64,000 nt of DNA from the human T2T-CHM13v2.0 reference genome, Homo sapiens: NCBI RefSeq assembly GCF_009914755.1, contig NC_060947.1; one strand, written 5' to 3'. Below, piece after piece: positions 55,096-62,560 of the stretch. The position numbers and the translations under genes were made by a program. The notes below the pieces were generated by a model. It saw only the letters and a program-made list of their open reading frames with translations. It was not told where the DNA came from and ran no database searches. Numbering within the stretch: position 1 is the stretch's first letter; the number at the start of each line of letters is the position of its first letter.

Positions 55096-55462
55096 TGCCA
55101 AATTCATTTTACAAGGCCAGCATTACCCTAATGCCAAAGTCAGACACTACAAGAACACTACAGCCAATATCCCTGATGAACATAAATGCAAAAAGCCTGC
55201 ACGAAATACTAACAAACAAAATCCAACAGCACATTAAAAGGATCATACATCATGACCAAATGGGATTAATCCCTAAGATGCAAGGATGGGTCAACATACA
55301 TAAATTAATAAATGTGATATACCACATTAACAGAATGAAGGATAACAATCATCTCAAAAGATTCAGAAAGAGTATTTCACAAAAATTCAATGCCACTTCA
55401 TGATAAAAACTCTAAACTAGGTATAGATGGAATTTACCTAAGCATAATAAAGGCCATATATG
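55096..55462 (+). mobile_element. L1 ORF2 (RT region) fragment; left half of a split L1
   Basis: Translates [14 protein letters not shown]...[10 protein letters not shown]...[23 protein letters not shown]. Confidence 0.92.
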
Positions 55463-55709
55463 CCTGGCTAATTTTTGTATTTTTAATAGAGACGGGGATT
55501 CACCACGTTGGCCAGGCTGGTCTTGATCTCCTGACCTCAAATGATCCTCACCTCGGCCTCCCAAAGTGTTGGGATTACAGGCGTGAGCCACCGCACCCTG
55601 CCACAATTTTCTTCTAAGATAAAAAAGTTTACATAAGGGTTCTCTGGGATGGAAACAAAAGTTGGACAGAGCCAGGATTATTTTAATAAAATACAATTAA
55701 TAGGAGTTG

Positions 55710-55995
55710 TGATAAATGAAATGATGCCCCACAAAAGTGCCCATGTCTTAACCCCCACGTTCTAGGAATATATTATGGTATATGACAAAGAATAGAGGCT
55801 GTAGATAAAATCAAGGATGATAATCAGATGACTCTAAAACAAAGAGATTAATTTGAATTATGAGATTGGTGTCTACAGCCATACCACCCTGAATGCACCT
55901 GATCTTATCTGAATTATAAGTGTGAGCCTAGGGTAATCACAAAAGTTCTTAAATGGGAATGAGAGGCTAAGAAAATTAATGCTGTGATATGAGAG
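55710..55995 (+). mobile_element. MLT1-type LTR fragment hosting the 5S piece
   Basis: gccccacaaaagtgcccatgtcttaaccccc...taatcagatgac...gagatta...gtaatcacaaaagttcttaaa. Confidence 0.6.
55871..55912 (+). pseudogene. 3'-truncated 5S rRNA pseudogene fragment (nt 1-42)
   Basis: GTCTACAGCCATACCACCCTGAATGCACCTGATCTTATCTGA vs 5S GTCTACGGCCATACCACCCTGAACGCGCCCGATCTCGTCTGA: 36/42 identical. Confidence 0.9.
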
Positions 55996-58158: not shown

Positions 58159-60205
58159 ATTACATAAGTAGTACAGAACTTGCTATTTAATTTAACTTAA
58201 ATGTATGGATTTACACTTTCAATATGTCTAAATACTTTTGAATCAAATGCTGCCAATTCTCTGTGGGTTTTTTTTAGTTTAACATACATGATGGATAGAT
58301 ACTCCCATATGTTTACAAGTGTCTTCTTTTTCATTTTGATTTTCAGGCCTTAATACAGAGAACATTTTTCTTTCTTTTTGAAGTATAATATTAAGAATAT
58401 CCTCCTGGTAATATAATCTCTCTGTCTTCGTATTTTTGAGAATGTTTTATTTTTATTTATTAAAGATATTTGACTAAATATTAAATTCTTACACTCAATA
58501 TTTACTTCTCCTTGTTCTGGCTTCTATCAAGGCTGTGTGGATGGTGCCTACAAATTTGTGGCTTACCTCTGTTTTTTATCTCCCTAATTTTAAGATTTTT
58601 CTTTCTTTTTAGTGTTATACAGCTTGACTATTATTTCTGTATAAATGATCACCTGTATTTACCTTTTTTTTGAAAACTATGTACTTCTGAATTCGAGAAT
58701 TTTTTCTGGCTTTTAATTTTACAAAAAATTATTTCTTTCTAAAATTACATTTGTGTCTTATTCTTTGTATGTATTTCAGTGAAACAACTGAATATACTTT
58801 ATTCCTTCTAATCTTTGTCTTTATAGATCTATAAATACATTTACATCTTATATCACTTTACTTTTATTAGCATCGATTTTCTCTCCTTAATCTTCCAGTG
58901 CACTATTTATCTCATTAGCTTATTCTAAGTTAATAGTTTCCCAATACAATGTATATTGAATTTATAGATTTTTATTTCTCATTTATTCAATTTACAGTTA
59001 GCTCTTTCCATGGATGCTCTTCAATTTTTAAGTTTCTTCCTCTTTAAACACTATTTTTGTCTCTTATTTTATCACTGAATTGATGTAAACATTTTAAATA
59101 CAATTCCAATTATTATTAATTTATGTAGCATCCAATTTCTTCTTACTCTAAATTGTGGTAGCTTATTTTGTGTGTGTGTGTACTTCATAACTTCTTATAA
59201 TTTAGCTGTCATGATTGGGAGACCTTTCCCTGTAAATGTCTTCAATCAGTATATTTGTTTGTTCTACTTAACCTGGCACAATATTATCAATTTTGCCTTG
59301 TGATCAGCCATTCGCTTCTCACGTTGATAAAGCCTTTGAATCTTTTCTTGACTCATTTGTGTTCCTGGAAAGTTCTGATATTTTTCCTTTCAGCCCCATT
59401 GGGCATTCTAGAGATTTTTGTAACTTTTGATGCACAAACTTTCACACTGCACACATAAAATATTTTAGTTATGTAATGCTACCACACATCAGCATCTTAT
59501 GAGAAATCTTGAGTCTCTTTACTTGAAGCACCCCCTCTCCAATATACAGTATGATACACTGATGTGCAGAATGTGATTAGTTTATTAATCATATGTGAAA
59601 ATATTAGTAGCTACATATGGCCAGAATAGATTTTTCTCTCTACAAATGTAAGTTAGTGTTGATAGAATTTGTTATGCGATATTTGGTTCTTTGGTTTCAG
59701 TCTCAATGCTTTCTTCTTGGCATTTCATTGACTCTGTAAATTAACCTCAGCATCAATTTTCTTTTAAATTCAACAGTTATTCAAATTGATCGAAAATTAA
59801 ACTTGTATGTAGCTAGTTATCACTTGTGGGTTACACTTTAATTGACGGTTTCTGATGTCATTTCATAGTGTCTAGAATATAGGACCTATTGGAGATCTAC
59901 TTTCATGAAATTACTGACATAATTTTGGGTCCAAAATTTCAAAATTTTAAATATTTTTATTTGGAATTTTAAAATAATTTATATGCTCTTTTTACTGGCT
60001 AATAATGCTATTCATTATAATCTGATATTCAAACTGTCTAAAAAAGTTAACAATCATTGATTTATTTGTTGTATATACAGTTTATTTCTATGACAGTTTT
60101 AATGTCACCTAATATTATTTTTAATATTTCAATTTCTCATTTAAATACATTTTGTGTTGTTTATTTTAATCTCATTCAATCTGTATGTGCAAATGGCTTA
60201 GAAAA

Positions 60206-62560
60206 AAAGGCCATATATGACAAGCCCACAGCTAACATCATATAGTCAACAGTGAAAAACTAAAAGCTTCTCCTTTAAGATCAGGAACAAGGCAAGGATG
60301 CCCATTCTCACCACTCCTATTCAACATAGTACTAGAAGTCCTAGCCAGAGCAATTAGGCACGAAAAAGAAATAAAAGGCAGCTGGGCGCGGTGGCTCACA
60401 CCTGTAATCCCAGCACTTTGGGAGGCCAAGGCAGGCGGATCACGATGTCAGGAGATCGAGACCATCCTGGCTAACACGGTGAAACCCTGACTCTACTAAA
60501 AATACAAAAGATTAGCCGGGCGTGGTGGCGGGAGCCTGTAGTCCCAGCTACTCGGGAGGCTGGGGCGGGAGAATGGCGTGAACCCAGGAGGCGGAGCTTG
60601 CAGTGAGCCGAGATCACGCCACTGCACTCCAGCCTGGGTGACTCCAGACTCCATCTCAATAAATAAATAAATAAATAAATAAAAAAGAAAAAAAAAGAAA
60701 TAAAAGGCAACAGGCCAAGTGCAGTGGCTCACGCCTATAATCCCAGCACTTTGGGAGGCTGAGGCAGGCTGATCACTTGAGGTCAGGAGTTCCAAGACCA
60801 GCCTGGTCAACATGATGAAACCCCGTCTCTACTAAAAATACAAAAACTTAGCCAGGCGTGGTGCCACACGCCTATAGACCCAGCTACTCAGGAGGCTGAG
60901 GTGAGAGAATTGCTTGAACCCGGGAGGCAGAGGGTGCAACTCCAGCCTGGGCAACAGAGCGAGACTTCATCTCCTAAATAAATAAATAAATAAATAAATA
61001 AATAAATGGCAACCAAATCAGAAAGAAAAAAAAACTACCTGTTTACAGATGATAGAATCTTATATCTAGAAAACTCTAAACACTCCACAAAATAACTGTG
61101 AGAACTAATAAACAAATTCAGTAAAGTTGCAGGATACAAAATCAACATTAAAAAATCAGTTGTGCCGGGCACGGTGGCTCACACCTGTAATCCCAGCACT
61201 TTGGGAGACAGAGGTGGGTGGATCACCTGAGGTCAGGAGCTCGAGACCAGCCTGGACCATATGGCGAAACCCCGTCTCTACTAAAAATATAAAATATTAG
61301 CTGGGCTTGGTGCTGAGTGCCTGTAATCCCAGCTCCTCAGGAGGCTGAGCCAGGAGAATCGCTTGAACCCGGGAGGTGGAGGTTGCAGTGAGCCGAGATT
61401 GCACCATTGCACTCCAGCCTGGGCAACAAGAGTGAAACTCTGTCTCGAAAAAAAAAGTCAGTTGCATTTCTATACACTAACAATGAACTATCTGGAAGGG
61501 AAATTAAGAAAATAATTCCATTTACAATAGCATCAAAAAGAATAAAATACTTAGGAATAAATTTAACCAGACGTGAAAGACATGTACACTGAAAACTATG
61601 TAACATTAATTAAAGAAATTGAAGACAATACCAATGAACAGAAAGACATCCTGGGCTTGTGGATTGTTAGACTTAATATAGTTAAAACGTCTATACTACC
61701 CAAAGCAGTCTACAGATTCAATGCAATCCCTGTCAAAATCTCAATGACATTTTCTACAGAAATAGAAAAAAATCCAAAAATCCATATGGAACTACAAAAG
61801 GCCTCACAGCCAAAACAATCTTGAGAAAGAAGAACAAAAGAGTCATCACACTTTCTGATTTCAAAATCTATTACAAGGCTTCAGTAATTAAAACAGTATG
61901 CTACTGGCATAAAAACAGACAGACATAGAAACCAATGAAACAGAATCAAGAGCCCAGAAATAAACCTCACATATATGGCCAACTAATCTTTGACAAAGGT
62001 GCTCTGAATACACAAGAGGAAAAGGATAATCTCTTCAACAAATGGTATAGGAAAAATTTGATATCCACATGCAAAATAATGAAATGGACCCTTATCTTAC
62101 ACTACACACAAAAATAATTTGGAATTTATTTTAATTATTCCATTATTTTAATAAAGAAATTTATTTTTAAATAAATGTAAATAAATACATTTTATTTTAT
62201 TTTATTATTTATTTATTTTTTTGAGACAGATTCTCACTCTGTCGCCTAGGCTGGAATGCAATGGCGTGATCCCGGCTCACTGCAACCTCTGCCTCCCAGG
62301 TTCAAGCGATTCTCCTGCCTCAGCCTCCCGAGTAGCTGGGATTACAGGCATGCGCCACCACGCCTGGCTAATTTTTTGTATTTTTAGTAGAGACAGGGTT
62401 TCTCCATGTTGGTCAGGCTGGTCTCGAACTACCGACCTTAGGTAATCCTCCCACCTCGGCCTCCGAAAGTGCTGGGATTACAGGCGTGAGCCACTGCGCC
62501 CGGCCTACATTTATTTTTAAATAAATGGATTTAAATGTTAAGACCTGAACCTATAAAAAT
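60206..62560 (+). mobile_element. L1 ORF2 continuation (right half of the split L1) with four nested Alus
   Basis: [12 protein letters not shown], ggaacaaggcaaggatgccc, SVAFLYTNN...[28 protein letters not shown]. Confidence 0.92.

What the first reader, a model, noticed from the sequence alone, without database searches (positions are those of the whole stretch)
55449..60219. V1R pseudogene arrived as a 4.7-kb cargo that split an L1, with a perfect 14-bp target-site duplication
Seen: L1 ORF2 stops at ...ATAATAAAGGCCATATATG (55462) and resumes in register at AAAGGCCATATATGACAAGCCCACAGC (60206). AAAGGCCATATATG is duplicated exactly at 55449-55462 and 60206-60219. The 4743 bp between start abruptly in the middle of an antisense Alu, sharing ATG microhomology, and end in a short A-run. 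They carry an MLT1 LTR, the 5S fragment, Alus, the V1R pseudogene and ~2 kb of AT-rich unique sequence. Established: a 7-20 bp TSD at a T/AAAA-like site (here AT/AAAG), 5' truncation with microhomology and a 3' A-run are marks of L1 target-primed reverse transcription. Inference: this is a retrocopy of an unspliced, repeat-containing RNA from another V1R locus, so the V1R is not native to X. Caveat: the A-tail is only ~4 extra A and I see no AATAAA upstream, so internal priming or a DNA-templated insertion is possible.
Basis: partly seen in the sequence, partly recalled or inferred. Interest (0 to 1): 0.8.

Follow-up and report, generated by a model that had tools for sequence, protein, structure and literature searches.

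The report
V1R pseudogene retrocopy inside an L1
A 4.7-kb piece carrying the dead pheromone-receptor gene VN1R110P was copied, most likely through RNA by the L1 machinery, from a chromosome-16-type locus into an old L1 element on the X chromosome; this is an ordinary kind of event, and the reference annotation already calls the gene a processed pseudogene.

Summary
AAAGGCCATATATG occurs exactly twice in the window, at 55449-55462 and 60206-60219. The L1 ORF2 sequence on either side abuts in other L1 copies, with exactly those 14 bases counted twice.

The 4743-bp block has paralogues. The closest is pericentromeric chr16 (C16:38.99 Mb). It carries the complete antisense Alu with that Alu's own target-site duplication (TSD), and its flank runs on upstream, whereas X starts mid-Alu. 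X and chr16 are sister copies and share a TAA stop.

At the 3' end, five long paralogues read on past the X junction. X and two other dispersed short copies (chr4, chr2) all break off at the same base and turn A-rich. That base lies 21-22 nt after an ATTAAA, which X has mutated to ATTCAA.

Best reading: an L1-mediated retrocopy of an unspliced, already dead V1R transcript, roughly 40 Myr old.

Weak points:
- The A-tail is almost absent.
- chr16 now lacks the last 1.6 kb.
- No other primate genome could be checked.

A table in PMC10686515 lists VN1R110P as "processed_pseudogene", so the event is ordinary and largely already annotated.

The parts
55097..55462 (+). Left half of the host L1 (ORF2, start of the reverse-transcriptase domain)
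   Evidence: The Pfam RVT_1 match covers profile positions 2-57 at 21.4 bits, below the cut-off. The first look found 8068 candidates genome-wide, and the scored copies are 75-79% identical. The name 'L1 ORF2' comes from my reading of the translation, i.e. from recall.
55449..55462 (+). Left copy of the 14-bp target-site duplication AAAGGCCATATATG. The implied bottom-strand nick is 5'-CCTTT/ATTAT.
   Evidence: The nick site is read from the sequence. Its likeness to the L1 endonuclease consensus TTTT/AA is from established knowledge.
55463..55600 (-). 5'-truncated start of the block: about half of an antisense Alu (one monomer)
   Evidence: Rfam gives an SRP-type hit at 55487-55601 on the minus strand. 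The chr16 paralogue has the full Alu with its own duplication GCAATTTTCTTC, and chr15 and chr1 have the empty site.
55601..56027 (+). Upstream flank of the V1R unit, shared with chr16 (about 88-90%), chr15 (79%), chr1 (74%) and chrY (71%). It includes a 5S-like piece at about 55871-55914.
   Evidence: The 5S name is recalled and was not recovered by Rfam.
56028..56730 (+). Two sense Alus (56028-56332 and 56345-56640) plus a (TA)n/(CA)n run, all absent from the chr16 paralogue
   Evidence: They arose after the X/chr16 split.
56854..57167 (-). Later antisense Alu insertion with its own duplication GTAAAGTCTATT (at 56854 and 57156), absent from chr16
57226..58158 (+). VN1R110P, a V1R pseudogene. 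The TAA at 57322-57324 is shared with chr16. The TGA at 57865-57867 is specific to X. There are several frameshifts.
Evidence: Pfam PF03402 E-values are 1.2e-14, 3.8e-14 and 0.0016.
58159..60201 (+). Conserved 3' flank, or likely 3' UTR, of this V1R family (72% A+T)
60174..60179 (+). ATTCAA, the mutated counterpart of the family's ATTAAA hexamer, 22 nt before the A-run
   Evidence: ATTAAA is present in 6 of 8 aligned rows. Only 2-3% of positions in this flank lie 10-30 nt after such a hexamer.
60202..60205 (+). Remnant A-run at the 3' end of the block. Paralogues encode GAAA here, so about one A is untemplated.
60206..60219 (+). Right copy of the 14-bp target-site duplication
60206..60379 (+). 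Right half of the host L1 ORF2. It is followed by a later Alu with duplication GAAATAAAAGGC at 60368 and 60697.
   Evidence: RVT_1 matches profile positions 118-144 at 24.3 bits, below the cut-off.

Best explanation
The block 55463-60205 is a retrocopy made by the L1 machinery through target-primed reverse transcription.

**Proposed sequence of events**
1. A long transcript of an already dead V1R gene was made in the germ line. The source was a locus of the type now at pericentromeric chr16 (C16:38.99 Mb). The transcript was not spliced within the copied part and carried an antisense Alu.
2. The transcript ended at the family's ATTAAA poly(A) site.
3. L1 endonuclease nicked the bottom strand of an old L1 ORF2 on Xp11.23 at CCTTT/ATTAT.
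4. The freed T-rich end primed on the start of the A-tail.
5. Reverse transcription ran 4.7 kb and stopped or switched inside the Alu.
6. The staggered second nick gave the 14-bp duplication.

**Afterwards**
- Three Alus and a microsatellite entered the X/donor lineage after its split from the chr16 copy; whether before or after the insertion is not shown.
- The hexamer mutated to ATTCAA.
- Parts of the block are now exons of a predicted lncRNA.

**Shown**
- The duplication and the single host L1.
- A chr16-type origin, and the direction of transfer (chr16 type to X).
- The 3' end shared with two other dispersed copies.
- The stop codon shared with chr16.

**Inferred**
- The RNA intermediate and the enzymes.
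- The date, about 40 Myr, near the split of Old and New World monkeys.
- Whether chr16 itself or a lost sister copy was the donor.
For: **Insertion site.** The exact 14-bp duplication sits precisely where one L1 is interrupted.

**Nick site.** The implied nick TTT/AT resembles the L1 endonuclease consensus (sequence plus established knowledge).

**5' end and direction of transfer.**
- chr16 has the complete Alu with its own duplication.
- chr15 and chr1 show the empty Alu site.
- X starts mid-Alu and keeps the downstream duplication copy.
- The chr16 flank continues upstream into sequence shared with chr15 and chr1. X does not.

**Relationship to chr16.**
- X and chr16 are sister copies with support 100/98. 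Terminal branches are 0.05 and 0.067 (10 V1R copies).
- K2P distance is 0.10-0.115 over three segments.
- The TAA at 57322-57324 is shared only by X and chr16.

**3' end.**
- Five long paralogues read on (GAAATAGCGCC...).
- X, chr4 and chr2 copies all leave that sequence at the same base and turn A-rich.
- ATTAAA lies 21 nt upstream in 6 of 8 rows.
- Only 2% of positions in the chr1 flank, and 3% in X, lie 10-30 nt after such a hexamer.
- The flank holds longer A-runs (6 A at 58723 and 60040). Internal priming would be expected to favour those.

**Orientation.** The sense strand of the V1R, the hexamer and the A-run all agree with the orientation of the nick.

**Annotation.** Table 3 of PMC10686515 lists the gene type of VN1R110P as processed_pseudogene (passage seen).
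Against: - **A-tail.** It is nearly absent. Of the 7 A's at the junction, 3 belong to the duplication and 3 are templated in paralogues, so about 1 is necessarily added.
- **Hexamer.** X itself has no AATAAA or ATTAAA at the right distance, only ATTCAA.
- **No sign of intron removal.** No splicing is seen within the copied part (colinear with genomic paralogues), so the usual proof of an RNA step is missing.
- **No single donor.** No present-day locus is colinear over the whole block. chr16 stops at window 58610 at an Alu, with only Alu matches beyond. chr7 is only 74-84% identical and lacks 55601-55908.
- **5' microhomology.** It is AT, not ATG, in today's chr16.
- **Unusual size.** 4.7 kb with an embedded antisense Alu is long for a retrocopy.
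- **Untested.** No other primate genome was available, so neither the empty site nor the date is tested.
Confidence: 0.78

Rival explanations
1. Orphan L1 3' transduction. In this reading an L1 lying upstream of the donor V1R read through its own weak terminator. The transcript was polyadenylated at the V1R ATTAAA site, and severe 5' truncation left only the transduced flank. This is still RNA-mediated and made by L1; only the promoter differs.
For: - Two other dispersed copies of the same 3' tail sit directly after the end of high-copy repeats. These are chr4 (about 430 bp) and chr2 (about 520 bp).
- The first look found 2238 and 1349 candidates for those upstream repeats.
- From recall I read those repeats as L1 3' ends.
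- So L1 read-through into this poly(A) site seems to have happened at least twice.
Against: - No sense-strand L1 was found in the 6.3 kb upstream of the chr16 copy. Only Alu matches and one weak 70% antisense hit appeared. The comparison set held only L1 RT-region loci and window L1 pieces.
- Transductions of more than 4.7 kb are rare (established knowledge).
- Nothing in the X block itself points to an L1 promoter.
Confidence: 0.1
2. DNA-templated insertion. In this reading a 4.7-kb DNA segment from a pericentromeric V1R duplicon was copied or pasted into a staggered break by microhomology-mediated repair or template switching. The 14-bp duplication would come from filling in the stagger.
For: - Both junctions show only short microhomology (AT(G) and AAA) and almost no untemplated A.
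- No splicing.
- This V1R family has spread widely by DNA duplication in pericentromeric and subtelomeric regions.
Against: - The 3' end coincides, in sense orientation, with a hexamer-plus-21-nt site. It is also the exact end point of two other dispersed copies, and chance for the hexamer spacing alone is about 2-3%.
- The break site resembles an L1 endonuclease site.
- A 14-bp duplication lies within the usual L1 range.
- Duplicative transpositions of these regions are usually tens of kb and lack duplications (established knowledge).
Confidence: 0.1
3. Internal priming. In this reading L1 reverse transcription began on the short internal GAAA of a longer transcript rather than on a poly(A) tail.
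For: Paralogues encode GAAA at the junction, and the tail is at most 4 A.
Against: - Three independent copies end at the same base.
- Longer A-runs lie within the block (6 A at 58723 and 60040).
- L1 ORF2 protein needs a poly(A) tract on its template (established knowledge, recalled).
Confidence: 0.05

Closest known systems
L1-mediated processed pseudogene (retrocopy) formed by target-primed reverse transcription
   Same: - Target-site duplication of 14 bp.
- Endonuclease-like nick site.
- 5' truncation.
- 3' end at a likely poly(A) site.
- Parent on another chromosome.
- A gene-type column seen in PMC10686515 Table 3 already calls it processed_pseudogene.
   Different: - No intron loss can be shown.
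- The copy is colinear with genomic DNA for about 1 kb upstream of the ORF and carries an antisense Alu.
- The A-tail is reduced to about 1-4 bases.
- The parent was already a pseudogene (shared TAA).
L1 3' transduction, including orphan transductions
   Same: Non-L1 flank is mobilised up to a downstream poly(A) site. Two sibling copies (chr4, chr2) of the same tail look like classic transductions.
   Different: The X block has no L1 3' end at its 5' side, and no source L1 was seen within 6.3 kb upstream of the chr16 copy.
Pericentromeric/subtelomeric duplicative transposition of V1R-bearing duplicons
   Same: The same gene family. The paralogues on chr16, chr7, chr15, chr1, chr2, chr10, chr12, chr14, chr18 and chr22 continue past both ends of the X block, as DNA duplicates do.
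   Different: The X copy is short, bounded by a duplication inside one L1, and ends at a transcript-type 3' end.

Membership tests
L1-mediated retrocopy / processed pseudogene | Flanking target-site duplication of about 7-20 bp at an uninterrupted pre-insertion site | tested here: met
   The exact 14-bp repeat occurs only twice in the window. In 4 of 7 other L1 copies both flank alignments reach the junction and overlap by exactly 14 bp.
L1-mediated retrocopy / processed pseudogene | Nick site resembling 5'-TTTT/AA on the strand opposite the insert's sense strand | tested here: met
   The bottom strand reads CCTTT/ATTAT. This is a partial match, TTT/AT. The consensus is from established knowledge.
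L1-mediated retrocopy / processed pseudogene | 3' poly(A) tail not encoded at the parent locus | tested here: inconclusive
   There are 7 A's at the junction. Three belong to the duplication, three are templated as GAAA in paralogues, and about one is extra. The chr4 copy has 6 A's and chr2 has an A-rich 24-nt stretch at the same point.
L1-mediated retrocopy / processed pseudogene | 3' end at a polyadenylation site of the parent transcript | tested here: met
   ATTAAA lies 21 nt upstream in 6 of 8 aligned copies, and three dispersed copies share the end point. Chance for the hexamer spacing is 2-3%. Use of the site in vivo is not shown.
L1-mediated retrocopy / processed pseudogene | Introns of the parent removed | tested here: not met
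   The block is colinear with genomic paralogues from the Alu through the ORF. V1R coding regions are single-exon (PMC1995454, passage seen), so this feature has little power here.
L1-mediated retrocopy / processed pseudogene | A parent locus elsewhere that extends beyond both ends of the copy | tested here: met
   At the 5' end, chr16 has the whole Alu and its upstream flank continues. At the 3' end this is shown only in more distant paralogues. chr16 now lacks the last 1.6 kb.
V1R vomeronasal receptor family (Pfam PF03402) | Significant match to the family profile | tested here: met
   54.7 and 53.1 bits against a cut-off of 25. A third piece scores 18.1 bits.
V1R vomeronasal receptor family (Pfam PF03402) | Intact open reading frame | tested here: not met
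   There are stops at 57322-57324 and 57865-57867 and several frameshifts. It is a pseudogene.
L1 3' transduction | L1 3' end directly upstream of the mobilised flank, or a source L1 upstream of the donor | tested here: not met
   The X block starts in an Alu. No sense L1 was seen in the 6.3 kb upstream of the chr16 copy, against a limited L1 comparison set.

The most novel reading that the evidence does not exclude
The 3' end of this V1R family may be a working germ-line poly(A) site that was captured repeatedly. It would have been used once by a 4.7-kb unspliced transcript of a dead V1R (the X copy) and at least twice by L1 read-through (chr4 and chr2).

If so, RNA-mediated spread is an overlooked route by which single-exon chemoreceptor pseudogenes leave their clusters. 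Retrocopy pipelines that rely on intron loss would miss such copies.
Probability: 0.35. Interest if true: 0.4.

Novelty: already known. Interest (0 to 1): 0.25.

Why it matters
- **Origin.** It settles where one annotated pseudogene came from. VN1R110P is not a relic of a native X-linked V1R. It is an immigrant from a chr16-type pericentromeric locus that was already dead when copied.
- **A worked example.** It shows how to recognise a retrocopy of a single-exon gene without intron loss. The signs used are a host repeat split in register, the duplication, a parental repeat cut at the 5' end, and a 3' end shared with independent copies.
- **A phylogenetic marker.** The insertion is a clean presence/absence marker for dating within primates.
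- **Beyond that it is routine.** The mechanism is textbook, and the gene already carries the label processed_pseudogene in a published gene-type column.

Tried and rejected
- **5S fragment.** Rfam did not recover 5S rRNA for the fragment at E up to 10 on 55800-56000 or in the 5.7-kb scan. The 5S label therefore stays recalled.
- **L1 continuity, first attempt.** Comparing against loci already held gave only unrelated repeat hits. It worked after fetching L1 copies.
- **chr4 composite copy.** A search for its target-site duplication found no exact 9-mer upstream of the copy in the held locus (two hits lay inside the copy itself). More sequence could not be cut out, so this was left open.
- **Rest of the V1R unit on chr16.** Downstream of its break, chr16 gave only Alu matches.
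- **chr7 copy at 64.6 Mb as a source L1 locus.** It was checked and is not one.
- **Chance explanation of the repeat.** Rejected on the shuffles and on its placement exactly at the break in the L1.
- **Transfer from X to chr16.** Rejected because chr16 has the whole Alu and the continuing flank.
- **Literature.** Four searches found no paper on the origin of VN1R110P or on V1R retrocopies. VN1R110P occurs only in two expression tables (passages seen).
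Full report
**1. The observation**

The 14-mer AAAGGCCATATATG lies at 55449-55462 and 60206-60219. These are the only two matches in the 64-kb window, even allowing one mismatch. 100 dinucleotide-preserving shuffles gave a mean of 0.03 matches, and none reached two.

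The sequence on both sides belongs to one high-copy element:
- The left flank had 8068 first-look candidates in the genome.
- I aligned 55120-55462 and 60206-60380 separately to seven other copies. Both alignments reached the junction in four of them (L053, L054, L056, L057), and there they overlap by exactly 14 bases.
- Two more copies (L051, L055) give 14 by projection. One (L052) is unclear.
- Pfam RVT_1 matches profile positions 2-57 on the left flank and 118-144 on the right. Both scores are below the curated cut-off. The 61-position gap fits the roughly 60 codons between the two pieces.

So one old L1 ORF2 was split, and 14 bases were duplicated. I recognise the translation as L1 ORF2 from recall.

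**2. What the 4743 bp contain**

- 55463-55600 is one monomer's worth of an antisense Alu (Rfam SRP-type hit at 55487-55601, minus strand).
- Two sense Alus (56028-56332 and 56345-56640) and a microsatellite follow.
- An antisense Alu at about 56866-57155 has its own duplication GTAAAGTCTATT at 56854 and 57156.
- VN1R110P matches Pfam V1R in three frame pieces (E = 1.2e-14, 3.8e-14 and 0.0016). It is broken by stops and frameshifts.
- The last 2 kb is 72% A+T.
- Rfam did not recover 5S rRNA, and I had no repeat library to test the MLT1 label.

**3. Paralogues**

The window's own genome could be searched.
- The 3' 2 kb is not unique. It gave 44 matches on chr7, 12, 2, 10, 18, 22, 14, 1, 16, 4, 17 and X, including X itself.
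- The V1R region and the upstream flank also have paralogues.
- The closest is C16:38993128-38995564, on the minus strand. BLAST identity is 87.7% over window 55460-55950 and 82.7% over 57155-58610. With gaps excluded, identity is 87.5-90% and K2P distance 0.10-0.115.
- chr16 homology stops at window 58610 at an Alu. Further down there are only Alu matches.
- C7:65.17 Mb is colinear from 55909 to 60203 at 74-84%.
- A maximum-likelihood tree of 10 V1R copies puts X and chr16:38.99M together (support 100/98, terminal branches 0.05 and 0.067). chr7:65.17M comes next, then chr15.

**4. The 5' junction**

- chr16 carries a complete antisense Alu flanked by its own duplication, GCAATTTTCTTC.
- chr15 and chr1 have the empty Alu site.
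- X begins in the middle of that same Alu and keeps the downstream duplication copy.
- Upstream of the Alu, chr16 continues in sequence shared with chr15 and chr1, whereas X has L1.

This fixes both the origin (a chr16-type locus, after that Alu had inserted, hence within primates) and the direction of transfer. At the join, X reads ATATATG|CCTGGC and chr16 reads CCACCATT|CCTGGC.

**5. The 3' junction**

- Five long paralogues read ...GCAAATAGCTTGAAATAGCGCCTAACAC... straight through the point where X reads ...GCAAATGGCTTAGAAAAAAAGGCC.
- Of the seven A's in X, three belong to the duplication and three match the paralogues' GAAA. The added tail is therefore about one base.
- On its own this would favour internal priming or a DNA mechanism. 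Two further facts point the other way.

First, the paralogues have ATTAAA 21 nt before this point (6 of 8 aligned rows; X has ATTCAA and one chr7 copy is disrupted). Only 2% (chr1) to 3% (X) of positions in this flank lie 10-30 nt after an AATAAA or ATTAAA.

Second, two other dispersed short copies leave the paralogue sequence at the same base and turn A-rich:
- C4:29.27 Mb, about 430 bp, continues with GGAAAAAA.
- C2:172.67 Mb, about 520 bp, continues with a 24-nt A-rich stretch.

Longer A-runs within the block (6 A at 58723 and 60040) were not used. I read this as a real poly(A) addition site.

**6. State of the donor**

X and chr16 share a TAA at 57322-57324 that chr7 and chr15 lack. The TGA at 57865-57867 is specific to X. 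The transcript therefore came from a gene that was already dead.

**7. Mechanism and date**

The bottom strand at the left edge of the duplication reads CCTTT/ATTAT, a partial match to the L1 endonuclease site (consensus recalled). The orientations of the V1R, the hexamer, the A-run and the nick all agree with target-primed reverse transcription of a sense transcript, truncated at its 5' end within the Alu.

The X terminal branch is 0.05 and the pairwise distance 0.10-0.115. Set against recalled primate divergences, this suggests roughly 40 Myr. That is an upper bound if a lost sister of chr16 was the true donor. It is inference and was not tested here.

**8. Rivals**

- An orphan L1 3' transduction is a variant of the same process. 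The chr4 and chr2 copies sit directly after the ends of high-copy repeats (2238 and 1349 first-look candidates), which I read from recall as L1 3' ends. However, no sense L1 was seen within 6.3 kb upstream of the chr16 copy, using a limited comparison set.
- A DNA-templated insertion would explain the near-absent tail and the lack of splicing. It would not explain the transcript-type 3' end shared by three copies.
- Chance is excluded.

**9. Comparison with what is known**

This is a member of a textbook class. In Table 3 of PMC10686515 the gene-type column lists VN1R110P as processed_pseudogene (passage seen). The other paper that names it only lists it in an expression table.

Four full-text searches found nothing on its origin or on V1R retrocopies. 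A review describes V1R clusters as L1-rich and V1R coding regions as single exons (PMC1995454, passages seen).

The new details appear to be the donor type, the 4.7-kb extent, the junctions and the shared poly(A) site. They are unsurprising.

**10. Limits**

- No other primate genome, repeat library or transcript 3'-end data were available.
- Supplements of the cited papers were not opened.

Noticed in passing
L042 (C4:29271200-29274600) about 1500-1933; L041 (C2:172669200-172672700) about 1513-2029, minus strand: Two short dispersed copies of the last 430-520 bp of the V1R-family 3' flank end at the same base as the X block. Each sits directly after the end of a high-copy repeat (2238 and 1349 first-look candidates), which I read from recall as L1 3' ends. 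They look like L1 3' transductions that used the same poly(A) site. Their 5' starts differ (equivalent to X 59793 and 59698), so they are likely two separate events.
   Followed up: partly
window 54727-55096 next to 55097: A separate L1 ORF2 C-terminal fragment on the same strand abuts the 5'-truncated start of the host L1 at about 55097. This suggests one L1 nested in or next to another. 54103-54726 holds two antisense Alus.
   Followed up: no
G000 C18:8329-9433, 62344-63448, 116400-117504, 170294-171398; C10:9204-10308: The V1R-family 3' flank occurs four times at about 54-kb spacing at the very start of chr18 and once at the start of chr10, all with equal scores. This looks like a tandem subtelomeric duplicon carrying a V1R-type unit.
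   Followed up: no
window 57416-57565, 57803-60304 (given annotation): The predicted lncRNA LOC107985695 uses a GT at 57566 and an AG at 57801-57802 inside the V1R pseudogene as splice sites. Its last exon runs 99 bp past the block's 3' junction into the L1. This fits with the old hexamer (now ATTCAA) no longer ending transcripts here.
   Followed up: no
window 55871-55914: A roughly 42-base piece matches 33 short dispersed loci at 81-98% among the 41 matches. It is shared with the chr16 paralogue and its 3' end with chr7. I recall it as the 5' part of 5S rRNA, but Rfam did not report it.
   Followed up: partly
window 60368-60709 and 60713-61010, 61166-61455: Three further Alus interrupt the host L1 to the right of the block. 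The first has the duplication GAAATAAAAGGC at 60368 and 60697. Rfam hits to mir-1268 and mir-3135 in this region and in the block are below their gathering scores and lie inside Alus.
   Followed up: partly
chr16 paralogue (L035+L036), joined coordinates 10768-11070: The chr16 copy has its own private Alu at the point equivalent to window 55945, a 7-base deletion and other private changes in the V1R. It is cut off at an Alu at the point equivalent to window 58610. It has therefore changed considerably since the split from the X copy.
   Followed up: partly
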